The position numbers were made by a program, and so were the translations under genes. DNA of 48,349 bases, from positions 1 to 48,349 of the forward strand of contig CAYJBG010000004.1 of the NCBI GenBank assembly GCA_964368085.1, written 5' to 3'. Shown in pieces: positions 7,921 through 21,036 of the stretch; the first letter of the stretch is position 1; every line of letters begins with the position of its first letter. The notes under the pieces are model-generated. The model made no database searches and was not told the DNA's origin. It was given only the letters and a program-made list of their open reading frames with translations. This DNA is from an uncultured Acidiferrobacterales bacterium. GTDB taxonomy: Bacteria; Pseudomonadota; Gammaproteobacteria; Acidiferrobacterales; UBA6901.

Positions 7921-8089
7921 GATCAAACCCTCATATCGATATTTAAAATAAAAATCCTCGCGCTTATTTGCCCTGTTCGGCTTCCCAGCCGGTTTCCGGA
8001 ATTTACCTAGTGGTCGCAAGCGACCGCCTGTTGATGTTTTTCAGCCCGTTCATTACCTCGGCAGACAGGCTTAAGCCCACCGAAGGTTT

Positions 8090-8782
8090 TTAGTGCCGCT
8101 CGATCTTGCGGGTCATGGTGACGGACCCAGGGTTCGTCCCCGCCGTCCCCGTGTCCGTGGTGCTCGCATCCATGCGGTAGGCCGAAACCTGAGTGGGGTT
8201 CAAATTCCCCACGTAGGCATACTTCAGTGTGTCGGCCGCCGCGCTCGCACCCTTGGTTAGGGTCGATGGAAACGCGCGCGCGCGATTACGCACGGTGCCG
8301 AGGCTCTTTAAAGCCCCGGTTGCGGCGTCGATACGGTAGACCGAGACGGTATTGGGATTTTTATCCTCTACGTACACGAATTTTCCGGAGCGCTCGACGC
8401 TGACGGACCGGGGATGCGGGGCAAACACCGGCACACCGACCGGAGTCAAGGCTCCGGTCCCGGGGTCGATGCGGTAGACCGAGATCTCGTTGGCGGCCTC
8501 ATTCGCGACATAGGCGAATTTGCCCGTGGGGTCGACGCTGACGGTGAGAGGGCCGCCCGCCTCGGTCTCGCTTTTGTCGTGCAACCGACTGGCGGCGGAG
8601 TCCACGGCGTACAGGGACAAGGTTCCCTCGTTGACGTAGGCGACATAGGCGACGCGATGGACATCGGCCGGTGTGCTCACCACACCGGCCGATGATCCGC
8701 CGCTCTGTCCGTCACAGGCGCTGAGCGCCAGCAACGTTAACCCTCCGATAAATGACTTGCCTGGCAGTCTCTTCAAGTTCAT
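8090..8782 (-). CDS. Lactonase-type beta-propeller lipoprotein, shortened paralogue of 13481-15133
   Basis: Lipobox LSAC; VDPTGKFAYVAN...ISVYRID...TGALT repeats; only about 4 repeat units. Confidence 0.75.
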   Translation of the reverse strand: MNLKRLPGKSFIGGLTLLALSACDGQSGGSSAGVVSTPADVHRVAYVAYVNEGTLSLYAVDSAASRLHDKSETEAGGPLTVSVDPTGKFAYVANEAANEISVYRIDPGTGALTPVGVPVFAPHPRSVSVERSGKFVYVEDKNPNTVSVYRIDAATGALKSLGTVRNRARAFPSTLTKGASAAADTLKYAYVGNLNPTQVSAYRMDASTTDTGTAGTNPGSVTMTRKIERH

Positions 8783-8841
8783 GGCTGAGCCTCATTCAGT
8801 GAGTGTGCAGCCTTACTGTGGCCCATCGTGCGCGCGGCTGC

Positions 8842-8857
8842 TGTGAGCCAGTTCACA
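8842..8857. promoter_or_regulatory. Canonical CRP box 1
   Basis: TGTGA-GCCAGT-TCACA, a perfect TGTGA-N6-TCACA, 60 bp upstream of the start at 8782. Confidence 0.8.
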
Positions 8858-8891
8858 GTTTTGCAAAATCCCCGCGTGCGACGGCGCATTC

Positions 8892-8907
8892 TGTGAACCA
8901 GTTCACG
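8892..8907. promoter_or_regulatory. CRP box 2
   Basis: TGTGA-ACCAGT-TCACG (9/10 match), 50 bp from box 1. Confidence 0.7.
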
Positions 8908-8952
8908 CATCCGGCCCGCCGGGCGCCGTGGGCGTCTTGCCGCCTCGACACC

Positions 8953-9627
8953 TCATGGCGTTAACGGATCCCTGGCGGGCGTCATCGCTTGCGACGGCGA
9001 CACCCCGTGCACCACGATGCTTTTGCCGTCCACCGCGATCAGCCCTTGCTGTTCCAGATCGAGCAGTACTTGCCCGGCCGTCTCGCGCGAACAGCTCACC
9101 AGCCGGCCGAGTTCCTCACGCGTGATGCGCACCAGCATGCCCTCGGGATGGGCGATGGCCTGCGAGTCGGCGGCGAGGTCAAGCAGGGCGCGCGCGATCC
9201 TTCCGGCCACGTCCAGGAACGCGAGGTTGCCGAGTTTTTGGCTGGCGGCACGCAGGCATCGCGCGATCTGCCCAACAATCGGCAGCAGCAGGCCGGGCGC
9301 CGCCTGAATCAAGTTACGAAATTTTTCGTAGCTGATCACCGCCACTTCACAATCGGTGCGTGCGCGCACCGAGGCGCTGCGTTTGATATTGGCGTCGAAC
9401 AAACCCAGTTCGCCGAAAAACTCCCCGGGCCCGAGATACGCGAGGATCAGTTCCGCGCCGTCCGGGTCCTGCACCCATACCGTCACCGACCCCGCGAGGA
9501 TGAAATACAGCACATCGGAATTTTCGCCCTCGCGCATGATCAAACGCTTGGGCGCAAAGCGCTTGCGCGTCGCGTGTTGCAGCAGCGCGGCGATCTCGGG
9601 GGTAACGGCAGGGCCGCTCGCGGTCAT
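8953..9627 (-). CDS. Crp/Vfr-family transcriptional regulator (paralogue 1)
   Basis: FFGELGLF...RSA cNMP pocket, LAFLDVAGRIA hinge, HTH TREELGRLVSCSRETAGQVL. Confidence 0.92.
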   Translation of the reverse strand: MTASGPAVTPEIAALLQHATRKRFAPKRLIMREGENSDVLYFILAGSVTVWVQDPDGAELILAYLGPGEFFGELGLFDANIKRSASVRARTDCEVAVISYEKFRNLIQAAPGLLLPIVGQIARCLRAASQKLGNLAFLDVAGRIARALLDLAADSQAIAHPEGMLVRITREELGRLVSCSRETAGQVLLDLEQQGLIAVDGKSIVVHGVSPSQAMTPARDPLTP

Positions 9628-9747
9628 GGTCTAACGCCCGGGCTATTTCGATAATTTAAAAACGTCGCCATCCACACTGTCTCTCGGTAAAAATGCTCCA
9701 TAATTCCCGCGCCGTATGAAATGCGGGCCGTTACGGAAAGGTTCCCT

Positions 9748-11577
9748 TCAATACAGATACACCGCGCCGGCTTGGACGGCAGTGTTGTCGTTCTGATCGC
9801 CGTTGATGCCGGTGGCGTTGCTGGCTTCGGTAAAAGCCCCCACTGCCAGGGTGTTGCCGTCGTTATTTAAGGCAAGAGACCAGCCGAAGAAATCGTTCGC
9901 TCCCGTGTTCGAGGCCTTCACATAGGCCTGCTGGTTCCAGGTGGAACCGCTGCGGGTGAACACATACACCGCGCCGGCAAAGGCGGAGTTGTTAACCGTT
10001 TGATCGCCGTCAATCCCGGTGGCGTTGCTGGCTTCGCCAATAGCCCCCACCGCCAGGGTGTTGCCGTCATTGCTTAAGGCAAGTGAGGCGCCAAAGTTAT
10101 CATCCGCCCCCGTATTGGAAGCCTTCACATAGGCCTGTTGGCTCCAGGTAGAGCCGCTGCGGGTGAACACATAGGCCGCGCCGGCACTTGAGGCGGCGTT
10201 ATTAGCCTGATCGCCGTCGATCCCGACGGCGTTGCTGGCTTCTTGAGTAGCCCCCACCGCCAAGGTATTGCCGTCACTGCTTAAGGCGACGGAGGTGCCG
10301 AAGTTATCATTCGCGTCCGTGTTGGAAGCCTTCACGTAAGCCTGTTGGCTCCAGGTGGAGCCGCTGCGGACGAAGACATAGACGGCGCCCGCACGGAAGG
10401 CGGCATTATTCGTCTGATCGCCGTCAATGCCGGTGGTGGTGCTGGCCTCGAACATCGCCCCCACCGCCAGGGTGTTGCCGTCATCGCTTAAGGCCAGGGA
10501 GTTGCCGAATAAGTCATTCGCATTCGTGTTGGAAGCCTTCACATAGGCCTGCTGGCTCCAGGTGGAACCACTGCGGGTGAACACATAGACCGCGCCGGCG
10601 CTCACGGCTGTATTAATAGTCTGATCGCCGTCGATCCCCACGGCGTTGCTGGCTTCGCCAATAGCCCCCACCGCTAGAGTGTTACCGTCATTATTTAAGG
10701 CAAGAGACCAGCCGAAGGAATCACCATTCCCCGTGTTCGAGGCCTTCACATAGGCCTGCTGGCTCCAGGTGGAGCCGCTGCGGGTGAACACATAGACCGC
10801 GCCGGCCGCTACGACGGTATCGTTAGTTTGATCACCGTCGATCCCCGTTGCGTTGCTGGCTTCGGCGCGGGCCCCCACTGCCAGGGTGTTGCCGTCGTCG
10901 CTTAAGGCGAGGGCAATGCCGAATTCGTCACCCCCGTCGGTATTCGAGGCCTTCACATAGGCCTGTTGGCTCCAGGTGGAGCCGCTGCGGGTGAACACAT
11001 ACACCGCGCCGGCAGTGCCGAGCGAGTTGTTATTCGTCTGATCGCCGTCAATGCCTACGGCGTCGCTGGCTTCGTTAGGAGCCCCCACCGCCAGAGTGTT
11101 GCCGTCACTGCTTAAGGCGATAGACCCGCCGAAACGGTCAGCCGCTCCTGTGTTCGAGGCCTTGAAGTAGCCGATGGCCTGAAGCACCGCCCCGGCCGTG
11201 TTGACTTCGTTGGAGTCGGCGCTACAGCCGACGCTATTGCAGGCTTGTACCAGGTAACGGGCATTGGCCCAGTCGTGGCGAAGCACGGACACATCGCGGG
11301 TGGCGTTAATGGCCGTTATATTCCCTCCGACTTGGGTAAAGCCCGAGACCCCGTCGGGATTTTCGAAAAGCCGGTAGTAGCTGGCGCCGCTTACCGCGTT
11401 CCAACTGAACTGCAGTTGTTTCACGCCGAAGCCGATCAAGAGCGCCGGCGCCGAGGAAGGGGCGCTCGTGGGGGCGCTCCCCCCGCCTCCGCCTCCCCCA
11501 CCCCCGCAGGCGGTAAGAAAAAGCATCGACAGCAGTACCAGGAACCCTGTTTTGATGTTTACGGTATTTATGTTCAT
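9748..11577 (-). CDS. FG-GAP/integrin-alpha-like beta-propeller surface lipoprotein
   Basis: Lipobox LTAC plus poly-Gly; FN3-like segment; seven KASNT-x3-D-x-FG-x2-ALS-x-DGNTLAVGA...AGAVYVF repeats. Confidence 0.85.
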   Translation of the reverse strand: MNINTVNIKTGFLVLLSMLFLTACGGGGGGGGGSAPTSAPSSAPALLIGFGVKQLQFSWNAVSGASYYRLFENPDGVSGFTQVGGNITAINATRDVSVLRHDWANARYLVQACNSVGCSADSNEVNTAGAVLQAIGYFKASNTGAADRFGGSIALSSDGNTLAVGAPNEASDAVGIDGDQTNNNSLGTAGAVYVFTRSGSTWSQQAYVKASNTDGGDEFGIALALSDDGNTLAVGARAEASNATGIDGDQTNDTVVAAGAVYVFTRSGSTWSQQAYVKASNTGNGDSFGWSLALNNDGNTLAVGAIGEASNAVGIDGDQTINTAVSAGAVYVFTRSGSTWSQQAYVKASNTNANDLFGNSLALSDDGNTLAVGAMFEASTTTGIDGDQTNNAAFRAGAVYVFVRSGSTWSQQAYVKASNTDANDNFGTSVALSSDGNTLAVGATQEASNAVGIDGDQANNAASSAGAAYVFTRSGSTWSQQAYVKASNTGADDNFGASLALSNDGNTLAVGAIGEASNATGIDGDQTVNNSAFAGAVYVFTRSGSTWNQQAYVKASNTGANDFFGWSLALNNDGNTLAVGAFTEASNATGINGDQNDNTAVQAGAVYLY

Positions 11578-11790
11578 AAAAATTCCTCTCGTTTTCGTTT
11601 GTCTTTGCCGGCATTTGCGGCCTGCGGTCCCTGCTCGCGAGCTACAGCCGGTTCTGCGCCATCGCCACGCGGTTGTATATCAAGGGTGGTATGGAGCGAG
11701 GCCCCGCTGACGGCGAGACCTCGCTCCTGATCGTCACTCGTACCGATGAAGCTATTCAACAACCTCCCCTATCTGTAAGCAGTGCCCCGA

Positions 11791-12129
11791 TTACTGCACG
11801 ACCCGCGGCTGAACGGGAGCGACTGGTGAACTCTCGCCGGCAAGCGGCGGTCTCTGGACGGTCGTGTCTCCCCTGCAATTCACGAAGTCAGTCTTGCCTT
11901 TGTCCTTGCAAGTCTTGCCTGACATCGCAACGCAGTTGGCCGCATTCGGAGGCTGTGTCGACGGGGTTACGGCGATGGGCGTATTACCGCAGGTACACTC
12001 ACAGTACTCCTGCATCGTGGGCAATTTGCGAGCGGCCATCGCCGAGCTGGAGCCCCAGACGACGAAGCCCAAACCGATCAGAAGACCGATATTTTTGAGA
12101 AGCGTTGATGAAATCGAAGCTTGACGCAT
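11791..12129 (-). CDS. Small secreted Cys-rich protein
   Basis: Strong RBS (AAAGGAG), signal-peptide-like N-terminus ending AMA-A, six Cys (CxCxC...C...C...C), co-oriented with its neighbours. Confidence 0.65.
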   Translation of the reverse strand: MRQASISSTLLKNIGLLIGLGFVVWGSSSAMAARKLPTMQEYCECTCGNTPIAVTPSTQPPNAANCVAMSGKTCKDKGKTDFVNCRGDTTVQRPPLAGESSPVAPVQPRVVQ

Positions 12130-12266
12130 TGCATTCTCCTTTCTGTTAATGAATGTGGCGCTATTGTTGCTAAATCGAGACTGTCTCTCCTCATCCGCAG
12201 CCTGAACTTTGTCCGATGCGACCAGCGTGTCCGGTGCAAAACGGCGCCGGCTGCTGCTGATCCAAT

Positions 12267-13079
12267 TTAAAAACTGTAGTTAGTGGAACCTGCCATGGTG
12301 CCGCCGGCAAAAGGCGTAATGGTTCCGCCGACCGTGTTGTCCAGGAACAGGGTTGTGCCGCCGAAATCAATCGCGTTCAGGATCCCAATTTTCATGTTGA
12401 CAATCCGATTTCCAACGACGGTGTTCTTGCCGGAGGCCAGAACGGCGATGCCTCTTGATCCGGTCGAACCCACGATTGCGTTGCTGACGACATTTCGCTC
12501 CACCACTACGCCGGCGCCGCCTATTCTGATGCCGACAACTTCGTTGGGCGTTACACCGACGCCGGTTTCCACCACCTCGTTGTCGTGCACGTGCACACCG
12601 GTGCCCGCGACAAAAATCGCCCATTTCGCGCCGGCACCCGCAACGCCGCAGTTGTTGAGGAATAAGTTGTCGCGCACAACGCTGCCGTCTCCGTGCACGG
12701 AGATGCCCGCGTTGCCGTTGTCGCTTACTCGCAACTGCTCGAACAAGTGGCCGTGCGATGCCTTGCCGTCGACCCGGATGCCTGTATGAAATCCGCGTAT
12801 CGTGCCGTTACGCACGGTGAGGTTCTTGCGATCAACGGCGTAGATGCCGGTCCCCGTACCGAGGCCTTCGAGCGCATGTCCGTTCAGGTCGATCACGACG
12901 CCGTCGGCATTGACTTGGATCTGGCTGCTGATGGAACTGTTGAGGCAGTAAATCCCCGGCGCGCCGATGGTGTACCACGCACCCGTGATCGGCGTGCAAT
13001 TTGTCGTTTCCGCGTGTGCCACCGCGCTCAGGACCATCGAGAGAACGGCCAAACCGATAAATCGAGCTGTTGATTTCAT
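12267..13079 (-). CDS. Secreted right-handed parallel beta-helix protein
   Basis: RBS GGAGG, signal ending AHA, PGIYCL...VVIDLNGH...VRNGTIRGF and N/G-rich beta-helix repeats. Confidence 0.8.
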   Translation of the reverse strand: MKSTARFIGLAVLSMVLSAVAHAETTNCTPITGAWYTIGAPGIYCLNSSISSQIQVNADGVVIDLNGHALEGLGTGTGIYAVDRKNLTVRNGTIRGFHTGIRVDGKASHGHLFEQLRVSDNGNAGISVHGDGSVVRDNLFLNNCGVAGAGAKWAIFVAGTGVHVHDNEVVETGVGVTPNEVVGIRIGGAGVVVERNVVSNAIVGSTGSRGIAVLASGKNTVVGNRIVNMKIGILNAIDFGGTTLFLDNTVGGTITPFAGGTMAGSTNYSF

Positions 13080-13116
13080 GCTGGTCCTCCAATGAAAGCG
13101 AAATGTGTTTTCGACA

Positions 13117-13192
13117 GAAAATTTATAAGCCGTTGCAAGGCTTATTTCCCGGAACCGGTTCCGGTTTTGAGGGAATTTTCCGTACCCGGGCT
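13117..13192 (-). promoter_or_regulatory. Duplicated promoter copy 1: CCGGA-N6-TCCGG palindrome (13149-13164) plus -10-like TATAAA (13127-13122)
   Basis: ~75-bp near-identical direct repeat of 15311-15386; palindrome centre lies 29.5 bp from the -12 base, i.e. at -41.5. Confidence 0.7.
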
Positions 13193-13205
13193 GTTGTTCC
13201 GTGCG

Positions 13206-13358
13206 GCAGGTTGGGCCGCGCTGGCGAAACCCAACGCTTCAAGCCCATGTCCACCACGCCGGTCTCTCGCACGATCCACCATCGACATTCATCCTCCACG
13301 TCTCATTAACAGCATTGCCGTTGAGTTGTTGGGCTTCATTTCATTCAGCCCAACCTAC
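13206..13358. repeat. REPIN-like inverted pair of the GTAGGTTGGG family
   Basis: GCAGGTTGGG...CCCAAC (13206-13235) and GTTGGGCTTC...GCCCAACCTAC (13328-13358); related to 41245-41328. Confidence 0.6.
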
Positions 13359-13422
13359 GGGCTTACTATTCCAGTGCGGCGATCGATTCCGGCGAAACCA
13401 TTCATGATCGTCTCCTCTGGAA

Positions 13423-13448
13423 GAAAGCCCCGCTGACGCGGGGCTTTC
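13423..13448 (-). terminator. Probable intrinsic terminator hairpin
   Basis: GAAAGCCCCGC-TGAC-GCGGGGCTTTC just downstream of the stop at 13481; U-tract is weak. Confidence 0.55.
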
Positions 13449-13480
13449 CGTTCATGCCGTTACAGAAAGCACAATCCGGT

Positions 13481-15133
13481 TTACTGGATCGTGCCGGTAG
13501 TGGTGACGTAGAAGGGATCGGCCCCCGTAACAAAGGCCAAGCCAAGGCTGGCCAAGGCGCCGCTAACGCTGTCGATGCGGTAGGCCGAGACGCTGGTGGA
13601 GTTGAAATTCGCCACGTAGGCGAACTTGCCGGAGGGGTCGACGCTGACGGAGACGGGACCGTTCCCCGCCGCCACGGCCGCGCCGACGCTGCTGAGCGCC
13701 CCGGTGGTGGCGTTGATGGTGTAGACCGAGACGTTGCTCGAGCCGCCATTCGCCACGTAGGCGAACTTGCCGGAGGGGTCGACGCTGACGGAGCGGGGAT
13801 TGGTCCCCGCCGCAAACGGGCTGCCCGCCACGGCGGTCAAGGCCCCGGTGGTGGCGTTGATGGTGTAGGCCGAGACGCTGGCGGAGCCGTTATTCGCCAC
13901 ATAGGCGAACTTCGGCGTATAGACGACCGCCGCCGTGCCCCGGGTCATGGCCATCGCGATATTGCCGTTGCGGCCCGCGACCGTGGGCAGCGGCGTCAAG
14001 GCCCCGGTGGTGGCGTCGATGGCAAAAGTCGAAACGTTGTCGGAATTCACGTTGGCCACGTAGACGAACTTGCCCGAGGCATCGACGCTGACGGCGGCGG
14101 GGTTGGTCCCCGCCGTAAAGTTCGCGCCGTTGCATCCCGCGCCACCGCCGCAATCGATCTGCGTGAACGCCCCCACAGTCCCCACGTTGGCGGCGTCTAT
14201 GGTGTAGGCCGAGACGTCGCTGGAGACGTTATTCGCCACATAGACGAACTTGCCCGAAGGGTCGATGGCGACGGAGATGGGGCCGTCCCCGGCCCCCCCG
14301 ATGGCGGAGCCAGGCGAGAAGGCGCCGGTGGCGGCATTGATGTGCTGGGCCATTACGAAATCGTCGCCGTTACGCGCGATGAGGATCACCCTACCAGTCG
14401 GATCGAAGGTAATGGAGCGAGGCGCGGCGCCAGCCCCCATCGCAAACGGACTGCCCGCCGCGGGAGTCAGGGCGCCGGTGGCGGCGTCGATGGCATAGAC
14501 CGAGATGCTGTTGCCTCCCACTCCGTCAAAGCCGTTCGCGACGTAGGCAAACTTGCCCGCCGGGTCGACGGTGACGGCGCGGGGACCGCTCCCCGCCGGG
14601 AAGTTCTGAATACCGGCCAGAGCGCCGTCGGCATCAATCCGGGTCAGGGCCCCGGTGGTGGCGATGATGGCGTAGGCTGAGACGCTGTTACCGCCTGCCC
14701 CGTTAAAGCTATTCGCCACGTAGACAAACTTGCCGGTGGGGTCGACGGTGATGGAGACAGGATCCGTGCCGGCCGCCACGGCCGGGCCGACGCTCGTCAA
14801 AGCGCCGGTGCTGGCGTTGATATTGTAGGTCGAGACGTTGTTGGAGCCGTTATTCGCCACGTAGGCGAACTTGCCCGATGGGTCGACGGCGACGGAGCCG
14901 GGATTCGTTCCGGCTGCGATATAACCGTTGTGCCGCAACTGGCCGGTGGCGGCGTTCACCGTATAGATCGAGACAGTGTTGTCGTTGAAATTGGCCGTAT
15001 ACGCGAAGCGCGGCACGTTGTTGGGTGGGGGCGATGCGGCGCCACCTCCACCACCCCCGCCCCCGCCGCAAGCGGCAAGCGCGGCCAGAACGAACAGGGC
15101 GACAACACCGGTTAACGTGCGTTTGCTGGTCAT
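13481..15133 (-). CDS. Lactonase-family multi-blade beta-propeller surface lipoprotein
   Basis: RBS AGGAG, lipobox LAAC plus poly-Gly/Pro; about ten P-x-SV-x-VDPSGKFAYVAN...VS-x-Y-x-I-x3-TGALT repeats; start taken at MTSKR. Confidence 0.85.
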   Translation of the reverse strand: MTSKRTLTGVVALFVLAALAACGGGGGGGGGAASPPPNNVPRFAYTANFNDNTVSIYTVNAATGQLRHNGYIAAGTNPGSVAVDPSGKFAYVANNGSNNVSTYNINASTGALTSVGPAVAAGTDPVSITVDPTGKFVYVANSFNGAGGNSVSAYAIIATTGALTRIDADGALAGIQNFPAGSGPRAVTVDPAGKFAYVANGFDGVGGNSISVYAIDAATGALTPAAGSPFAMGAGAAPRSITFDPTGRVILIARNGDDFVMAQHINAATGAFSPGSAIGGAGDGPISVAIDPSGKFVYVANNVSSDVSAYTIDAANVGTVGAFTQIDCGGGAGCNGANFTAGTNPAAVSVDASGKFVYVANVNSDNVSTFAIDATTGALTPLPTVAGRNGNIAMAMTRGTAAVVYTPKFAYVANNGSASVSAYTINATTGALTAVAGSPFAAGTNPRSVSVDPSGKFAYVANGGSSNVSVYTINATTGALSSVGAAVAAGNGPVSVSVDPSGKFAYVANFNSTSVSAYRIDSVSGALASLGLAFVTGADPFYVTTTGTIQ

Positions 15134-15310
15134 GGTTTCTCTCCTGTTATCGGTCACTGTGCAATAGACATTCATGAAAAATTTCTCTCGTTTGTTTAAC
15201 CGTTCACGGTTTCGTGCCGGGCGCTCGTATCATTCAGCCCAAGCTACGGGCTATCTCTGTCCTGTTTGCCTATTCCATGTCGCAGCAACGAAGACGATGC
15301 CGCACCCATT

Positions 15311-15386
15311 GGAAATTTATATACGGGTGCAAGGCTTATTTCCCGGAACCGGTTCCGGTTTTGAGAGAATTTTCCGTGTCCGGACT
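15311..15386 (-). promoter_or_regulatory. Duplicated promoter copy 2: CCGGA-N6-TCCGG (15343-15358) plus TATAAA (15321-15316), overlapping the 3' end of crp paralogue 2
   Basis: Same sequence and spacing as 13117-13192. Confidence 0.7.
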
Positions 15387-16040
15387 CTCGTTCGGCCCCG
15401 GCGGTTGCGGCGGAACGCCCATCACCACGATGCTTTTGCCATGCACCTGGATCAGCCCCTGTTCTTCGAGGTTGCGCAACACCCGGCCGACCATCTTGGG
15501 GGAGCAGTTGACCAGCCGCCCCAGTTCCTCGCGGGTCATGCGCACCAACGTGCCGTCGGGATGCGAAACCGATTGGGAATCACGCGCCAGATCGAGCAAG
15601 GCGCGGGCGATGCGCCCGGTGACATCGAGGAACGCCAGATGACCGAGCTTTTCGCTGGTGGCGCGCAAGCGTTCGACGATCTGCATGGTGAGCTGCAACA
15701 GCAACTCGGGTTGCTCGCGGATGAACTGCTTGAGCCGGCCATAACCGATCGCGGCGATTTCGCAGTCGGTACGAACGCGCACGTAGGCACTGCGTTTGGC
15801 GTTAATGCCGAAGAACCCCAGCTCACCGAAGAATTCCCCGGGCCCGAGGTACGACAGAATCAGCTCATGGCCGTCCTGGTCTTCCATCAGCACCACCACC
15901 GACCCCTTCAAGATGAAAAACAACTCAGTGGGCGTCTCGCCCTCGTTCACAATCCTGCTCTTGGCTGTGTAATGCCTGCGCGTGGCCGCGGCCAGCAGGG
16001 TTTCGATCTCGGCGGTATAGAGTTTGCGCGCTAATGTCAT
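15336..16040 (-). CDS. Crp/Vfr-family transcriptional regulator (paralogue 2, altered recognition helix)
   Basis: RBS GGAGG; FFGELGFF...RSA, RLRATSEK...LAFLDVTGRIA, HTH TREELGRLVNCSPKMVGRVL. Confidence 0.92.
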   Translation of the reverse strand: MTLARKLYTAEIETLLAAATRRHYTAKSRIVNEGETPTELFFILKGSVVVLMEDQDGHELILSYLGPGEFFGELGFFGINAKRSAYVRVRTDCEIAAIGYGRLKQFIREQPELLLQLTMQIVERLRATSEKLGHLAFLDVTGRIARALLDLARDSQSVSHPDGTLVRMTREELGRLVNCSPKMVGRVLRNLEEQGLIQVHGKSIVVMGVPPQPPGPNESPDTENSLKTGTGSGK

Positions 16041-16084
16041 TGCTTTGCCCTCCTTCAGACCTCACGAGTAAATTGGCTTCACAT

Positions 16085-16294
16085 TCACTTCTCTGGGTCG
16101 TTGCGGCGTCTGCCGGTCACGGATTCCGGCAACACAGAATCTGAGATTGCGTGCGGCGGATCGTTACCGGCCAGCACGGCCCATAGCTCTTCGACGCTGT
16201 GGAAGGACGACTGCTGGTTGCTGGCCGTTTGCTCAATGAGCCCCACGATCCGGGTTCCCTCGCGGCGGTAGATGCGCAGCACGTAACTTTCCAT
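16085..16294 (-). CDS. Small hypothetical protein (SYVLRIYR...G-x2-E...F-x-S-x-EELW type)
   Basis: ATG start, compact beta-beta-beta-alpha-like pattern, 45 bp upstream of crp2 and co-oriented with it. Confidence 0.65.
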   Translation of the reverse strand: MESYVLRIYRREGTRIVGLIEQTASNQQSSFHSVEELWAVLAGNDPPHAISDSVLPESVTGRRRNDPEK

Positions 16295-16300
16295 ACAGCA

Positions 16301-16336
16301 AAGTTACCGCTGGCAATTCACGGATTGTTCACGGAT
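16301..16336 (-). promoter_or_regulatory. SARP/OmpR-type direct repeat plus -10 element
   Basis: Minus strand ATCCGTGAA-CA-ATCCGTGAA-TT-GCCAGCGG-TAACTT-N6-ATG; 11-bp periodicity. Confidence 0.6.
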
Positions 16337-16418
16337 CGCGGGGGCGGGGAGAAAAATTCAGGGAATGGGCGGGAAAAACCCAGGGATGGGGTTGTTTTAA
16401 TGGTTCTGTCCCATGTCG

Positions 16419-16508
16419 GTCGGGCTGAAGGCCGACCTGCAACAGCCGATATCGTTCCTTTTCCATCCACTGGAACCGATGGGTTTCGCTCCGCTCTACC
16501 CATCCTGC
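16419..16508. repeat. Two degenerate REPs
   Basis: GTCGGGCTGAAGGCCGAC-CTGC (16419-16440) and GATGGGTTTCGCTCCGCTCTACCCATC-CTGC (16478-16508). Confidence 0.5.
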
Positions 16509-16532
16509 GCGAGCTAAAATGACAAGTTGGGC

Positions 16533-16560
16533 TTGCGACTTATACCTGTTAAGGTATAAC
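16533..16560 (+). promoter_or_regulatory. TA promoter with operator palindrome
   Basis: TTGCGA...TATAAC overlapped by TTATACCT-GTTA-AGGTATAA (16540-16559); GTG start 6 nt after the -10. Confidence 0.65.
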
Positions 16561-16566
16561 CAAGGC

Positions 16567-16947
16567 GTGACGAATCACCAAGAGAAGCCCCTCGCCTGGG
16601 TGGGAAGCAGCAAAAGGGACTTGATGGCGCTGCCGGTGAGCGTTCGCAAGTTCTTCGGTCATGCCTTGGATTTTGTGCAGCGCGGCGAACAACACGATGC
16701 AGCGAAGGTTCTTAAAGGCTTCGGCAGCGCGGGCGTCTTGGAGATCGTCTAGGATGACCCCGGTGGGACTTACCGGGCTGTTTATACGGTCAAGTTCAAA
16801 GAAGCGGTTTTCGTGTTGCATGTATTCCAGAAAAAGAGCAAGCGCGGCAGCGCGACACCCAAGCCAGACATGAACATCATCCGCGAACGCCTGAAGGTCG
16901 CGGAGCAAGTTGCCCAGGAGATGCGTGATGAAAAAGCGAAAAATTAA
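16567..16947 (+). pseudogene. RelE/HigB (Gp49-like) toxin with an in-frame amber stop
   Basis: KPLAWVGSSKRDL...LKGFGSAGVLEIV*DD-x2-GTYRAVYTVKF-x2-AVFVLHVFQKKSK; TAG at 16750-16752 and the same frame continues to TAA at 16947. Confidence 0.85.
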
Positions 16948-17263
16948 AGGTATCGAAATCGAGATGAGCTCCGGCAATGTCTTTGCCGACCTGCGCTTAC
17001 CGGACGCCGATAAACTGAAAATAAAATCCGGCCTCGTGATTGAAATCACCAAGGCCGTGCGCCGACTGGGTTTGTCGCAAGAGGAAGCGGGGCGCCGTAT
17101 GGGCCTGCCTCAACCCAAAGTCTCCGGCCTGTTCCGTGGCGAGTTTACGAACGTCTCTGAGCGCAAGTTGATGGAATGTTTGAACCGGCTGGGATACGAC
17201 GTTGAGATCAAGGTTAAACCAACCGCCAGGCGCATGGGGCATTTGAGGCTGGCCGTCGCGTGA
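16928..17263 (+). CDS. HigA-like XRE-family antitoxin
   Basis: SSGNVFADL-x-LPDA, LSQEEA...GLPQPKVS, LGYDVEI; overlaps the toxin stop. Confidence 0.88.
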   Translation: MKKRKIKGIEIEMSSGNVFADLRLPDADKLKIKSGLVIEITKAVRRLGLSQEEAGRRMGLPQPKVSGLFRGEFTNVSERKLMECLNRLGYDVEIKVKPTARRMGHLRLAVA

Positions 17264-17660: not shown

Positions 17661-20600
17661 TCAGCGCGTGGCAATCAACGCATTTCGCAATGCGTCGGTC
17701 TGGGGCGAAGGTGCGATATTGAGTGAGTCTTGCAGGCGCTTGCGGCAACGCTCATAGGCCGCAAGTCCCTCGGTGCGCTGGCCGAGCGCTTGGCAGCAAT
17801 GCAAAATGCGCTGGTAAAGGACTTCCGTCAGATCGTCCTGATCCAGTCCACGGCGATACCAGCGGAGCGCCGCCTCGAAATCGCGCTGTGCTTCCAGTTC
17901 CCGGCCGTGCGCCAGGATGGCGTCGAGATACTTGCGGTGCAGGCGCTCGCGGAAAACCACAGCCCAGGACTCACCGGATTCGCCGTTGAGAAACGGCCCG
18001 GTGTAAAGCTGCGTGGCACGCTCGATCGAAGGCGGCGCCGCACCGTCCGGCGACGGCACGCCATCGGCCAGTAACGACTCGAACGCCCAGCTGTCCACCC
18101 AGCACATACGCGGGTCGAGGCGAAGCCGGCCATCCGCGGTCAGCACACTGTCCTCGCCGGTCAGCTTGCGCAACCGATGCAGCGCCATGGCGTAGCTCTT
18201 GTAGGCTTGGGTCCCGGTCATTTCCGGACCGAGCGCTTCGACCACCTGCTCGACCGGCAGGCCGCGTTCACCGCTGGCCACGAGAAGTTTGAGCAGGTCG
18301 AGCGGCTTGCGCTGGGCCTTGCCGGAGGATGGCAGGGGCCGGTCGCGGACGGTTACGGCAAAACGGCCGAGAGTGTGAATCCGCACTTCCCACGGCCAGC
18401 GTTCCAAGTGCCGCACGGACGCGACGGCTTCGAGGCGGCGCGTACGGATGAGATGTTGTACGTACTCCACTTCAATGCCGTTTTCGATAGCGATGGAAAA
18501 AAGACGCCGCATGATTTCCGGCGTCCACAACGGACGATTGACGTAGCCGTGCAGTTTGGCCATGTGCAACGTCTTGCGCAGCAAATTAATCGCGAGGCGG
18601 GTTTTGCCGCGATCCAGCGCGAACAACACGAGTGTGAACAACGACCCGAATTCGACATTCTTGCTGCGCAGGCGCCGCCCGAGGTGCCGTGCCTGCGCCA
18701 GACAGGCCAGCGCCTCGCGCCGTTCGCCCTGGTCGAACAAGGCTTGTGCCAGCCCCAACCGGTAAAGTGCCTGGCCAAACGGGACACCGGCAGCATCGCT
18801 GAGCGCGGCCGCCTGGCGCGCGTTGGCGACCGCATGCAGGGTGTCTTTGCGGAAGAAGGCGTCTAAAAAAACAAGATAGTAATAGTGTGCGCGATCCAGT
18901 TGACGTGCGCCTTGAATCGATTCCGCGCTGCCTTTGAGCAGACGCCCGGCCATGGCGAAATCGCCGGCAGTCAGGCTGCCGATCACGCCCTGCGACAGCA
19001 ACAGGCCATTCAGCATCTGCACGCCGCTGCGGTTGGCCACCTCCAGCCCTCTGTTCACCGCGTGCAGGCATTCATCATGTGCCGCCATGAACCAGTGATA
19101 ACCGGCCTCCATGGCGCACCAGGCGATGTAAGCGAGCGGTGAAGCGTCGGCAAGGCTTTCGGGTGGACGCACGGCTTCGAGGATCTGGCGTGCCTTGCCA
19201 AGATCGCCGATCCAGGCGGTGTAATAAAGCAGCAGTTGATTGCCGAGCACCATGCGCGCGCGTATCCGGATGGTGAAGAACGACTGTCTGTACCTGCTCC
19301 GCCCACATCGGAAGTTGCGGGTTTTGCGGTTGGCGATACATCAACGCCATGAACATGCCACAGGCAACCTGTGCGGCGATCTCGGGTGACGGAAACCCGG
19401 GTGAATCGGCACGCTGCAACTCGATCTCGGCGATCCATCGATCCACCGGATGAAAGTCGCCCCACTCGTAAACGAAGCTGTCGATGATTCGGCACCAGGC
19501 CAGCAACATACCGGCCCGGTCGTTGGCCTGGCTCTTGAACCGTTCGTAGGCGGATTCGAAATAGCCACGCGCCTGAACCGGATTGAAGGCGAGGCGACAG
19601 GTACCAAGCCAGTACAACAGCCAGCCATCGCTGTGCAATACGGTCTCTGGCAATGCGCGCAGCCAGGATTCCAGAGTTTGGAATCGCGCTTGCGCCGTAA
19701 GCGCCGGGGCATGTTTTAGGACATGCGCTTCCAATGCTGGCCAGTCCGATGCGGCGCGCCACAGCTCCGCCGCCGGCTCACTGTCGTCCGCCGCTTCGAG
19801 CAGCGCCGCCGCCTGGGTGCGCAACGCATTGAGTTGCGCAGGCGCGAAGGTATCAAGTGCGCGCTGCAGCAGAAACTCGTGGAATAAGGGATGGAACCGA
19901 TAAACCTCGCCCTGCCCTTGTTTGGTAACGAAATAATTTCGCCGGTACAGGTCGGCAAGAATTTTCCCGACGCCGGGCTCGCCGGTGATCTGCTGCGCGA
20001 TTGCCGTATTGGCTTCCGGCAGCAGGGCGGTTTGGCACAAAACCGATTGGGTCGTGGCGTCGAGCTTGTGAAAGATTTCGGTGGCGAAGTAATCGAACAA
20101 CACCTGATGCCCGGAGGCTTCAGCGAGCGCGGGTGCTTCGAGTTCGGGCCGCTCCAACAGCAACACCAGCCCCGCCGTCCAGCCACCGGTGCGTTCGTGC
20201 AGACGTTTCAGTTCGTGCGGGTCGAGCTTGCTCCGGTTGCGCAGCGTGACCACGGCGCGCGCCTCGTCGAGAGTGAGTTTTAATTCCGCGCCTTCCAGCA
20301 AGGCCAGTGCTTCGTTGGCGCGCAGCCGCGCGAACGCCGGCGGCGGTTCGGCGCGGCTGATGATGATAAGAGACATGCCCCCGGGCAACACGGCCGCCGC
20401 CTCGGCGACCACGGCATGGAAAGCGGATTCGGCGGGAACCTCCTGATAATTATCCAGCACCAGCACCGCCGGGGCCTTTAACCGTGCATAGAGCGCCTCG
20501 AAATAGCGGCGTGCGAACAAGACGAGGCCGGGGCGCTGTTCAGGCGTGAAGACCGGCAACGGCGTTCGATACCGCGAGGCGGCGTGGCGCGCGGCAATAC

Positions 20601-21036
20601 CTATATAGTGGAAGAACGTGGCAGGGTCGTCATCGCCCGCGTCCACTTGATACCAGATGCCATGAAGACGGCGGGCATCGAGATAACTGCTGACCATGGT
20701 GGTTTTGCCGGCGCCGGGCGCTCCGGTGACCCAGACCACCGGTTTTGCGCGCGAACGATCCAGATATTTGTAGAGGCGCGTGCGCGCCAGGGCGTGCGAG
20801 ACCTGGGGACGGGAAAGCTTGGCCGGAACGGGACCCGTAGCTGTTACGGGCGGGGTCAGGGGTAAACGTGGTGTGGATTCGCCTTTCCGGCGTGCCGGAC
20901 TCCCGCCTTTCGCGACGGCGGATTGGCGGCTGAGTCGGGCTTTTACCTTTTTGACAGGCACGGCCTTGCGGGAACGGCGTTTATTCTTCCTGTAGCCTGT
21001 TCTGCGCACGGTGACTCTTCCTCCCTTCACCAGCAT
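17661..21036 (-). pseudogene. MalT/AfsR-like STAND ATPase-TPR-SARP(HTH+BTAD) regulator, split by one frameshift near 19254-19262
   Basis: ORF 19075-21036: P-x-KLSRP, Walker A GAPGAGKTT, Walker B LVLDNYQ, RTGGWTAGL, YRFHPLF. ORF 17661-19253: TPR-like region, then IHTLGRF, LHRLRK, WVD, LYTGPFL and a BTAD tail. The frames join at a GC dinucleotide run. Confidence 0.85.

What the first reader, a model, noticed from the sequence alone, without database searches (positions are those of the whole stretch)
13117..16040. Crp paralogue with a rewired recognition helix next to a matching rewired operator (CCGGA-N6-TCCGG)
Seen: crp2 has HTH CSPKMVGR where E. coli CRP has CSRETVGR. The perfect palindrome CCGGA-ACCGGT-TCCGG occurs twice (13149-13164, 15343-15358). 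Each copy is upstream of a secreted-protein gene and centred exactly 29.5 bp from a TATAAA, i.e. at -41.5. It has CRP 5-6-5 geometry, and its spacer (ACCGGT) nearly equals that of the nearby canonical boxes (ACCAGT, GCCAGT). Established: in CRP, R180 reads G5, E181 and R185 read G7/A8 of T4-G5-T6-G7-A8, and -41.5 is the class II activation position. Inference: Crp2 lost R180/E181 but kept R185, and the site changed positions 4-6 but kept G7-A8. This suggests a naturally evolved orthogonal Crp-operator pair insulated from the global CRP regulon. The cNMP pocket (GE, RSA, TS) is intact.
Basis: partly seen in the sequence, partly recalled or inferred. Interest (0 to 1): 0.85.

Follow-up and report, generated by a model that had tools for sequence, protein, structure and literature searches.

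The report
Rewired Crp paralogue with matching operator
A second copy of the cAMP-receptor regulator has changed two DNA-reading residues, and the promoter box beside it has changed to match in every relative for which DNA was recovered, so this looks like a natural regulator and DNA site that changed together, though binding is untested.

Summary
CCGGAACCGGTTCCGG lies at 13149-13164 and 15343-15358, and crp2 (15336-16040, minus) reads CSPKMVGR in its recognition helix. The two copies are not independent: they sit in one 85-bp direct repeat. The loose pattern is not enriched genome-wide.

Comparison with other loci supports the pairing. Crp genes of this lineage are followed by a fixed promoter module: box A, 34 nt, box B, 21 nt, then a -10 hexamer. 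Six RE-helix loci carry TGTGA-type box B. All 4 distinct [P/S/A]K-helix loci carry CCGGAAC-NN-GTTCC(G/A)G at the same position. One RK-helix locus carries CGGGA-N6-TCCCG.

The box is conserved whether it is coding (window) or non-coding (L006, L020). Among 103 genomes of the order, it appears in promoter context only in the two genomes with an xK-type Crp.

Best reading (0.7): Crp2 is a cNMP-dependent, class II-like local activator of adjacent secreted-protein genes.

Not supported:
- Insulation from a "global" regulon. Crp1 also looks local.
- Full orthogonality. SK and AK loci keep a canonical box A.

No binding data or transcription start site exist. The helix and box switch is one evolutionary event. 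This is a new variant of a known kind.

The parts
15336..16040 (-). crp2: 234-aa CRP-family regulator with a cNMP-binding domain and a Crp-type HTH
   Evidence: The ORF is. Pfam hits are PF00027 (2.9e-21), PF13545 and PF00325. It is 59% identical to Crp1. The closest solved structure is Vfr 7ff9, E 8.4e-65. NCBIfam CRP equivalog NF008732 scores 264.2 bits against a cut-off of 266.
15483..15506 (-). Recognition-helix codons CSPKMVGR. P181 and K182 stand where CRP has R180 and E181. R186 stands at R185.
   Evidence: The translation is. Numbering comes from ungapped, equal-length spans to E. coli CAP chains 1g6n and 1i5z. Vfr reads CSREMVGRVL at the same place. The AF2 model starts helix 181-193 at P181.
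15343..15358 (.). Box B, copy 2: CCGGAACCGGTTCCGG. It overlaps the last codons of crp2 and is centred 29.5 nt from the -10 hexamer.
15316..15321 (-). Putative -10 hexamer TATAAA of the promoter of the 564-aa (550-aa from the likely start) gene. The predicted start site is near 15309.
   Evidence: The same column holds TATAAA, TATATA, TATAAA and TAAAGA in W1, L006, L020 and L025. The start site is not mapped.
13481..15133 (-). Target gene 1: a lipoprotein with lactonase-type 7-bladed propeller repeats. The ORF is open from 15175. The likely start is ATG 15133, behind AGGAGAG.
   Evidence: (PF10282, 8.6e-68). It is paralogous to the 230-aa gene driven by the crp1 promoter, with 41-48% identity in repeat segments.
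13149..13164 (.). Box B, copy 1: the identical 16-mer, in non-coding DNA
13122..13127 (-). Putative -10 hexamer TATAAA of the promoter of the 270-aa gene. The predicted start site is near 13115.
   Evidence: It partly lies in a terminator-like hairpin, 13145-13125 on the minus strand, that is not conserved in copy 2.
13117..13201 (.). Direct repeat copy 1, paired with 15311-15395. The duplicated unit is the promoter plus about 35 nt of the crp2 3' coding end.
   Evidence: Identity is 73 of 85, ungapped at an offset of 2194, and 49 of 50 in the core.
12267..13079 (-). Target gene 2: a secreted right-handed beta-helix (NosD-like) protein of 270 aa
   Evidence: PF13229, 1.7e-09; PF05048.
8953..9627 (-). 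crp1: an RE-helix paralogue (CSRETAGQ) with Q at the R185 position and A at the T127 position
8842..8907 (.). The crp1 promoter module. Box A is at 8892-8907 and box B at 8842-8857, both TGTGA-type, with starts 50 bp apart. The -10 hexamer CACAGT is at 8815-8820. The module drives the 230-aa lactonase-type gene 8090-8782 (minus).

Best explanation
Crp2 is a working, cyclic-nucleotide-dependent member of the CRP lineage. Two base-reading residues of its recognition helix have changed: R180/E181 became P/K, or S/K and A/K in relatives.

It most likely binds as a dimer to CCGGAAC-NN-GTTCCGG. This box occupies the slot that a TGTGA-N6-TCACA box holds in the same promoter of RE-helix relatives.

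The box is centred about 41.5 bp upstream of the inferred start of a sigma-70-type promoter with a conserved -10 and a poor -35 (GGGAAA). Crp2 would therefore act like a class II CRP activator.

The targets are local. One is the secreted lactonase-type propeller lipoprotein gene directly 3' of crp2. The other, reached through an 85-bp duplication of the promoter, is the secreted beta-helix protein gene.

- **Shown:** the anatomy, the helix-with-box association across loci, and conservation of the box as DNA.
- **Inferred:** binding, activation rather than repression, the effector and the start site.
For: 1. **Homologous promoter slot.** In every two-box locus, the starts of box A and box B are exactly 50 bp apart. 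The -10 hexamer begins 21 nt after box B.

2. **Box B follows the helix type.**
   - Six RE-helix loci (crp1 of the window, L022, L026, L028, L029, L038) have TGTGA-N6-TC(A/T)C(A/G).
   - All 4 distinct xK loci have CCGGAAC-NN-GTTCC(G/A)G: window PK, L006 SK, L020 AK and L023/25 PK.
   - The single RK locus, L036, has CGGGAACCGGTTCCCG with CACACT 21 nt downstream.

3. **The switch is sharp.** The RE protein of L022 is 78-80% identical to the SK and AK proteins.

4. **Both half-sites changed to the same new sequence.** Each reads CCGGA on its own strand in 4 of the 5 xK boxes, counting W1. L020 has CTGGA on one side. This is what a symmetric dimer would require.

5. **Conservation peaks on the box.** Across the 4 xK loci, 13 of 16 box columns are invariant. 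The figures are 10 of 34 for the A-B spacer and 5 of 33 downstream of the -10. The variable box columns are the two central spacer bases and one base in L020.

6. **The constraint acts on DNA.** The box is coding in the window and in L023/25. It is non-coding in L006, L020 and window copy 1.

7. **Exclusivity within the order.**
   - Among 103 genomes of the order, 14 have a Crp-like match at E <= 1e-30. Only G000 and G055 have an xK helix; the others read RE.
   - The exact 16-mer pattern occurs in 7 of the 103. In the 5 genomes without an xK Crp it lies inside open frames of 241-694 aa and lacks the module.

8. **The protein looks functional.**
   - The cNMP pocket residues and the HPDG loop are kept.
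   - 15 clade members at 65-91% identity keep K at position 181.
   - The AF2 model places P181 as the first residue of helix 181-193.
   - The genome has 3 class III cyclase domains.

9. **Literature.** In PMC2677863 (passages and section 11 read), residues 180, 181 and 185 are the specificity triad, and Arg180 reads G5. An engineered Pro180 CRP activates an operator altered at position 5 but not the wild-type operator. Here G5 is lost where R180 is lost (xK) and kept where R180 is kept (RK).

10. **The targets are paralogues.** The genes driven by the crp1 and crp2 promoters are 41-48% identical in repeat segments. This fits an old duplication of a regulator, promoter and target unit.
Against: - There is no biochemical or expression evidence. 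The start site is inferred only from a conserved hexamer.
- The xK proteins form essentially one lineage (quick tree). The helix and box association therefore rests on one evolutionary switch, plus one RK locus, and could be hitch-hiking.
- The two window copies are a single duplication.
- The E. coli contact map does not predict the change. Glu181 and Arg185 read positions 7 and 8, and Lys181 was selected on position-7 operators. Here G7 and A8 stay while positions 4-6 change.
- Crp1 has Q at position 185 yet sits beside canonical boxes.
- SK and AK loci keep a canonical box A. G055, which is 70% complete, shows no RE-type Crp. The xK proteins might therefore also bind TGTGA, in which case they are not orthogonal, or the partner is simply unassembled.
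- L025 has a weaker -10 hexamer (TAAAGA).
- The AF2 model is only moderate, with mean pLDDT 70.4.
- Neither G000 nor G055 shows further sites, so no wider regulon can corroborate the motif.
Confidence: 0.7

Rival explanations
1. Crp2 binds the palindrome but represses. The site overlaps the -35 region, so occupancy would block RNA polymerase at a promoter that is otherwise constitutive or activated by another factor.
For: The box spans about -49 to -34 relative to the inferred start. No direction of regulation has been measured. AR2 is not strictly kept: T20, R22 and R102 stand where E. coli has H19, H21 and K101 (the residue list is recalled).
Against: The -35 hexamer is poor (GGGAAA, 3 of 6 to TTGACA), and the consensus scan finds no sigma-70 promoter there. 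That is typical of activator-dependent promoters. RE-helix relatives have the same -41.5 and -91.5 layout, which matches the class II and class III positions described for E. coli Crp (PMC5957442, passages). The AR1 loop HPDG is kept.
Confidence: 0.1
2. A different dimeric DNA-binding protein reads the palindrome. Crp2's altered helix binds elsewhere or has lost specific binding, and the link to crp2 is only synteny inherited from one ancestor.
For: The association is a single phylogenetic event. A large AAA/BTAD regulator is syntenic with crp2 in 3 of 4 xK loci: the window, L020 and L025. The region between the box and the -10 is also fairly conserved, with 12 of 21 columns invariant.
Against: The box keeps the CRP 5-6-5 geometry, the GAAC/GTTC inner bases, the AAA flank and the exact slot of the ancestral CRP box. 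The residues that changed are those known to set CRP specificity. The RK locus shows a graded change: R kept with G5 kept. BTAD/SARP-type regulators bind direct repeats, not dyads (recalled). L043 has a response regulator, not the AAA/BTAD gene, directly upstream.
Confidence: 0.12
3. The palindrome is a structural or mobile element, such as an RNA hairpin, a terminator of crp2, or a REP-like repeat, rather than a protein operator.
For: It can form a 6-bp stem with a 4-nt loop in the crp2 transcript. It is followed by TTTT on the plus strand. Copy 1 is followed by a terminator-like hairpin at 13145-13125. The region does contain other repeats.
Against: There is no U-tract on the crp2 strand, and the terminator scan does not call it. 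There are no plus-strand genes to terminate. There is no Rfam match. Only 2 copies occur in the genome, and 1 in G055, so it is not a dispersed repeat. RE-helix relatives have a weakly self-complementary TGTGA box in the same slot, 8-14 of 22 positions. The slot is therefore conserved, not the hairpin.
Confidence: 0.04

Closest known systems
E. coli CRP (CAP) at class II and class III promoters
   Same: Both have a cNMP-binding domain and a Crp HTH. E. coli CAP chains match at E about 1e-62 over ungapped spans. Both use a 5-6-5 dyad operator. The site is centred at about -41.5, with a second site 50 bp upstream in relatives. These are the Crp motif positions reported for E. coli: -41.5 for class II, and near -40 and -90 at the class III deoC promoter (PMC5957442, passages).
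   Different: The helix has P/K where CRP has R180/E181. The operator half-site is CCGGA, not TGTGA. Only two sites exist in the assembly, so the regulator is local rather than global. A 25-residue disordered C-terminal tail runs into the promoter.
Pseudomonas aeruginosa Vfr (PDB 7ff9, 2oz6)
   Same: It is the best solved-structure match, E 8.4e-65. Its recognition helix CSREMVGRVL is identical to that of Crp2 except at the two changed residues.
   Different: Vfr keeps RE. Crp2 lacks a 3-residue insertion in the cNMP domain.
Engineered CRP specificity variants (Desai et al. 2009, PMC2677863)
   Same: The same idea applies: changing residues 180, 181 and 185 together with the operator gives new cognate pairs. 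A Pro180 variant activates an operator altered at position 5 but not the wild-type operator (passages and section 11 read, tables not held as text).
   Different: Those pairs were designed from distant subfamilies (FNR, HcpR, CooA and PrfA types) and tested in E. coli. In the passages read I saw no P/K pair and no CCGGA operator. Here the pair arose naturally among proteins about 80% identical, at one orthologous promoter.
Other CRP/FNR subfamilies with their own helix signatures and sites (FNR, FixK, NtcA and others)
   Same: The general principle is the same: family members differ in helix residues and operator half-sites. NCBIfam gives weak hits to NtcA, Fnr and FixK models.
   Different: Those hits score 27-38 bits against cut-offs of 228-300. 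By sequence, Crp2 belongs to the CRP/Vfr group, not to these subfamilies.

Membership tests
CRP/FNR superfamily | N-terminal cNMP-binding beta-roll domain plus C-terminal Crp-type helix-turn-helix | tested here: met
   PF00027 at 2.9e-21, PF13545 at 1.5e-12 and PF00325 at 4.7e-07, all above the curated cut-offs. The AF2 secondary structure fits this fold.
CRP proper (NCBIfam NF008732, cAMP-activated global regulator CRP) | Score at or above the curated equivalog cut-off | tested here: not met
   The score is 264.2 bits against a cut-off of 266, for both Crp2 and Crp1. The miss is 1.8 bits, so this is borderline.
CRP proper | DNA-contact triad R180/E181/R185 in the recognition helix | tested here: not met
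   Crp2 has P181, K182 and R186 at these positions. The triad is as described in PMC2677863.
CRP proper | cAMP-contact residues G71, E72, R82, S83, T127 and S128 (list recalled) | tested here: met
   Crp2 has G72, E73, R83, S84, T128 and S129. Ligand identity itself cannot be tested here.
CRP proper | Binds TGTGA-N6-TCACA | not testable with these tools
   There is no TGTGA box at either crp2-linked promoter of the window. The homologous slot holds CCGGA-N6-TCCGG.
CRP proper | Global regulon with many sites per genome | tested here: not met
   The assembly is 79% complete and holds 2 exact 16-mers. Sites with at most 2 mismatches number 15, against 32 for the reversed control. Crp1 also has only 1 exact TGTGA-N6-TCACA site.
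Class II CRP-dependent promoter | Activator dyad centred at -41.5 relative to the start site, overlapping a weak -35 | tested here: inconclusive
   The centre is 29.5 nt from the first base of a conserved TATAAA-type hexamer in all 5 xK promoters. The -35 is GGGAAA. The start site is not mapped.

The most novel reading that the evidence does not exclude
A Crp clade in uncultured soil, sediment and groundwater Gammaproteobacteria is diversifying its recognition helix: RE, RK, RQ (two origins), PQ and [P/S/A]K. The cognate box at one orthologous promoter follows a simple readable code. R at 180 goes with G5, and loss of R with C5. K at 181 goes with G6 and C4, and E with T6 and T4. The half-sites are TGTGA, CGGGA and CCGGA. 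In SK and AK loci, hybrid promoters carry a canonical box at -91.5 and a rewired box at -41.5. These would then be natural two-input gates that need two Crp paralogues, possibly answering to two different cyclic nucleotides.
Probability: 0.3. Interest if true: 0.75.

Novelty: new variant of a known kind. Interest (0 to 1): 0.6.

Why it matters
How duplicated transcription factors escape cross-talk is usually reconstructed from distant paralogues or built by mutagenesis. Here proteins about 80% identical differ at the two known specificity residues. The same promoter slot, with the same spacing and the same flanks, carries the matching new dyad.

That gives a small, directly testable natural series of three helix and operator pairs. 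It can test the CRP recognition code. It can show whether two residue changes are enough for the switch. It also offers candidate parts for orthogonal cNMP-responsive switches.

It also shows that a protein just 1.8 bits under the NCBIfam "global regulator CRP" cut-off (relatives carry JGI's generic CRP/FNR cAMP-receptor name) may be a local regulator with a different site.

Tried and rejected
**Searches that gave nothing or little**
- The metagenome scan with the single Crp2 protein found no relative. The allowed second scan, with alignment A2, gave 23 loci.
- The genome-contig scan gave 32 loci, of which only L043 is xK-type. No DNA could be obtained for the PQ-helix proteins. Only one locus each was obtained for RK (L036) and RQ (L035, which has no module).
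- Rfam gave no match in 8000-17000.
- No TGTGA-type or CCGGA-type box scoring 8 of 10 or better lies within 330 nt upstream of the xK crp genes, except one weak hit in L020. Autoregulation is therefore not indicated.
- Sites with 2 mismatches in G055 number 20 hits against 34 for the control. The paired sites on C57 lie in a long open frame.

**Ideas considered and rejected**
- *Sigma-54 promoter.* By eye the GG-to-GC spacing is one base too long against the recalled consensus, TGGCAC is absent, and RE-helix homologues lack TTGC.
- *Terminator.* See the third rival.
- *Mis-binning of contig C4.* No genome of the same family (0 of 18) has a Crp match. However, C4 has typical GC (0.622 against a mean of 0.612). 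It also has the highest tetranucleotide correlation of the 68 contigs of 10 kb or more.

- No RNA holder was listed for the region.
- Read laying on four DNA contig runs was uninformative. Contigs break at the repeated box.
- The careful treekit search did not finish. The quick tree (SH-aLRT only) is the one used.
- Supplements of the papers were not opened. The tables of PMC2677863 were not held as text, so I cannot exclude that a P/K or CCGGA pair is listed there.

**Novelty searches**
None of the titles and abstract openings that the four searches listed describes this helix or box. Only PMC2677863 and PMC5957442 were opened, and only in part; the others were seen as listings only.

Full report
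**1. What is in the window**

All genes in 8000-16300 lie on the minus strand. In transcription order they are:
- crp2 (16040-15336)
- a lactonase-type propeller lipoprotein (15133-13481)
- a secreted beta-helix protein (13079-12267)
- a 112-aa ORF
- an FG-GAP lipoprotein (11577-9748)
- crp1 (9627-8953)
- a 230-aa lactonase-type protein (8782-8090)
- an RCC1-repeat protein

Crp2 and Crp1 are 59% identical. Each scores 264.2 bits against the NCBIfam CRP equivalog, just under the cut-off of 266. The closest solved structures are Vfr (E 8.4e-65) and E. coli CAP (about 1e-62). Alignment spans to the CAP chains are ungapped and of equal length, which fixes the numbering.

Crp2 reads CSPKMVGRVL where Vfr reads CSREMVGRVL. 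P181, K182 and R186 therefore stand at CRP positions R180, E181 and R185. The pocket residues G72, E73, R83, S84, T128 and S129 and the HPDG loop are kept (the residue lists are recalled). An AF2 model (mean pLDDT 70.4) starts the recognition helix at P181. It leaves residues 210-234 disordered.

**2. The observation**

The 16-mer CCGGAACCGGTTCCGG is at 13149-13164 and 15343-15358. On the minus strand each copy is followed by 21 nt and then TATAAA. The dyad centre is therefore 29.5 nt from the hexamer, or -41.5 if the hexamer spans -12 to -7.

- The copies belong to one ungapped direct repeat. It runs 13117-13201 against 15311-15395, with 73 of 85 positions identical and 49 of 50 in the core.
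- Copy 2 is inside crp2, where it encodes T-G-T-G-S-G of the tail. Copy 1 also carries about 35 nt resembling the crp2 3' end. It is therefore a duplicated crp2 tail plus promoter, placed in front of the beta-helix gene.

The loose pattern is not enriched in the 2.37-Mb, 79%-complete assembly. It has 12 sites against 13 for the reversed control, or 12 against 10 in my own scan. Only the full 16-mer is special, with 2 exact sites, both here.

**3. Relatives of the protein**

Of the best 120 homologues, the helix pair at positions 180/181 reads as follows:

| Helix pair | Proteins |
|---|---|
| RE | 80 |
| RQ | 18 |
| PK | 9 |
| SK | 5 |
| RK | 4 |
| PQ | 3 |
| AK | 1 |

The 15 xK proteins are 65-91% identical to Crp2, and K is invariant. 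In a quick ML tree, the xK and PQ rows fall in one 20-row group that also holds 2 RE rows (SH-aLRT 85). A 13-row core has support 98 and is nested among RE-helix relatives. RK has one origin and RQ has two (the careful search did not finish).

Eight of the 15 xK proteins end in a K/E-T/S-G-T-G/R-S-G/R type tail. This is the peptide imprint of the box.

**4. Relatives of the locus**

DNA was obtained from three sources:
- the order-level genome search
- a metagenome scan with alignment A2 (23 loci)
- a genome-contig scan (32 loci)

A fixed module lies 3' of crp. It reads box A (16 nt), 34 nt, box B (16 nt), 21 nt, then a -10 hexamer. The starts of A and B are exactly 50 bp apart in all six two-box arrangements printed. 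All rows align without gaps.

Box B depends on the helix type:

| Locus | Helix | Box B |
|---|---|---|
| crp1 of the window | RE | TGTGAACTGGCTCACA |
| L022 | RE | TGTGAACGGCATCTCA |
| L026 | RE | TGTGAACTGCATCTCA |
| L028, L029 (= L030-32, L007, L044), L038 | RE | TGTGAACTGGATCACG |
| L037 | RE | degenerate (CGCCA...TCACT) |
| L027, L034 | RE | no module |
| L033 | RE | contig ends at the stop codon |
| Window | PK | CCGGAACCGGTTCCGG |
| L006 (= L043, G055) | SK | CCGGAACGGGTTCCGG |
| L020 (= L021) | AK | CCGGAACTGGTTCCAG |
| L023/24/25 | PK | CCGGAACCCGTTCCGG |
| L036 | RK | CGGGAACCGGTTCCCG, with CACACT 21 nt on |
| L035 | RQ | no module |

Fourteen more distant RE loci (40-53% identity) show no CCGGA dyad. 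One of them (L046) has a TGTGA dyad downstream.

In summary, 4 of 4 distinct xK loci have the CCGGA type. None of the 9 RE loci at 54% identity or more has it.

The switch is sharp. The RE protein of L022 is 78-80% identical to the SK and AK proteins, and its promoter flanks align base for base with theirs.

Across the 4 xK loci, invariant columns are distributed as follows:
- 13 of 16 in box B
- 10 of 34 in the A-B spacer
- 12 of 21 between the box and the -10
- 5 of 33 downstream of the -10

The three variable box columns are the two central spacer bases and one base in L020. This is the pattern expected of a CRP-like dyad. The box is non-coding in L006 and L020 and coding in the window and L023/25, so the constraint acts on the DNA.

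**5. Exclusivity**

In the 103 genomes of the order, 14 have a Crp-like match at E <= 1e-30. Only G000 and G055 have an xK helix, and all the others read RE. The exact pattern CCGGAACNGGTTCCGG occurs in 7 of the 103. In the 5 genomes without an xK Crp it lies inside open frames of 241-694 aa and has no module flanks. The reversed control gave 17 hits spread over 12 genomes by my count of that table.

G055 has one exact site and G000 has two. The putative regulon is therefore local.

**6. Mechanism**

Passages of PMC2677863 state four things:
- Residues 180, 181 and 185 form the specificity triad.
- Arg180 reads G5.
- Glu181 and Arg185 read positions 7 and 8.
- A Pro180 variant activates an operator changed at position 5 but not the wild-type operator.

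Here the half-sites are TGTGA (RE), CGGGA (RK, one locus) and CCGGA (xK). G5 goes with R180. G6 and C4 go with K181. G7 and A8 never change. That is a coherent code, but it is an inference.

Two observations do not fit a simple transfer of the E. coli contact map. Lys181 was selected in E. coli on position-7 operators. Crp1 has Q at position 185 yet sits beside canonical boxes.

The position at -41.5, the poor -35 (GGGAAA) and the A/T-rich stretch upstream fit class II activation. Box A at -91.5 in relatives fits the class III layout. PMC5957442 (passages) reports motifs at -41.5 for class II and sites near -40 and -90 at the class III deoC promoter.

SK and AK loci keep a perfect canonical box A (TGTGAACCGGTTCACA in L006) that overlaps the crp stop codon. 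PK loci have coding sequence in that slot and no box A. No RE-type Crp was found in the 70%-complete G055 assembly. It therefore remains open whether box A there is read by an unassembled paralogue or by the SK protein itself.

**7. Targets and context**

The crp1 and crp2 promoters drive paralogous lactonase-type propeller proteins, 41-48% identical in repeat segments. Other xK loci drive different secreted lipoproteins with glycine-rich linkers:
- an SBBP propeller protein in L020
- a haem-peroxidase-like protein in L025
- an unassigned 544-aa protein in L043

An AAA/BTAD regulator is syntenic in the window, L020 and L025. The genome holds three class III cyclase domains.

Exact TGTGA-N6-TCACA occurs once in the assembly, at the crp1 promoter. 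Neither paralogue looks global by this crude count.

**8. Verdict**

It is not supported in two respects. The two copies are not independent, and the promoters are not shown to be insulated from a global regulon.

The remaining weaknesses are these:
- There are no binding or start-site data.
- The association rests on one evolutionary switch plus one RK locus.
- Orthogonality is open.

By sequence and fold Crp2 belongs to the CRP/Vfr group. It fails two defining features of CRP proper, the RE triad and the global regulon, and narrowly misses the equivalog cut-off. I rate it a new variant of a known kind, with interest 0.6.

My literature searches listed nothing that describes this helix or box. 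The library is limited, and supplements and tables were not seen.

Noticed in passing
window 17661-21036 (minus): An AAA-ATPase/BTAD (SARP-like) regulator appears split into two overlapping ORFs, 19075-21036 and 17661-19253. The single 759-aa open frame of L020 aligns its residues 1-230 to the first ORF and 236-755 to the second. This suggests a frameshift or an assembly error near 19100-19250. The gene is syntenic with xK-type crp in L020 and L025.
   Followed up: partly
window 8953-9627 (crp1): Crp1 is itself unusual. It has Q at the R185 position and A at the T127 position (CSRETAGQ). Even so, it sits beside two canonical TGTGA boxes. One of these is the only exact TGTGA-N6-TCACA in the assembly.
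   Followed up: partly
L036 1600-1720 (metagenome contig, RK-helix Crp): An RK-helix Crp (CSRKMAGRVL) is followed by CGGGAACCGGTTCCCG, with CACACT 21 nt downstream. This is an intermediate half-site between TGTGA and CCGGA. A further dyad, GTGCCGGACGGCAC, lies just after the stop codon.
   Followed up: partly
window about 13326-13365 and about 15231-15258: A short repeat (CATTCAGCCCAA-C/G-CTACGGGCT) occurs in both intergenic regions. In run X1, bin 13328-13434 has depth 301 while neighbouring bins are at about 14-25. It looks like a REP-like element that is common in the community.
   Followed up: no
window 16519-17263 (plus): A Gp49-like (DUF891) small ORF, just under the Pfam cut-off at 23.2 against 23.9 bits, is followed by an HTH_37/XRE protein. 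This looks like a toxin-antitoxin-type pair. It lies between crp2 and the AAA/BTAD gene and is not seen in the other xK loci.
   Followed up: partly
L007 / L044 (RE-helix Crp of an Acidiferrobacterales MAG): The tandem TGTGA module 3' of crp drives a gene that begins MDKQKAGFTLTELV. This looks like a prepilin-type N-terminus (recalled motif).
   Followed up: no
L023/L024 versus L025: These loci share the same PK-type crp and box, but the sequence diverges about 70 nt downstream. L025 continues into a haem-peroxidase-like lipoprotein gene. L023 and L024 continue into what looks like the 3' end of a transposase-like frame (not checked).
   Followed up: no
G000 versus its family: No genome of the same family (0 of 18) has a Crp-like match at E <= 1e-30, yet contig C4 has the most typical tetranucleotide composition of the MAG. 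The two-crp region may have been acquired horizontally, or the family may otherwise lack Crp.
   Followed up: partly
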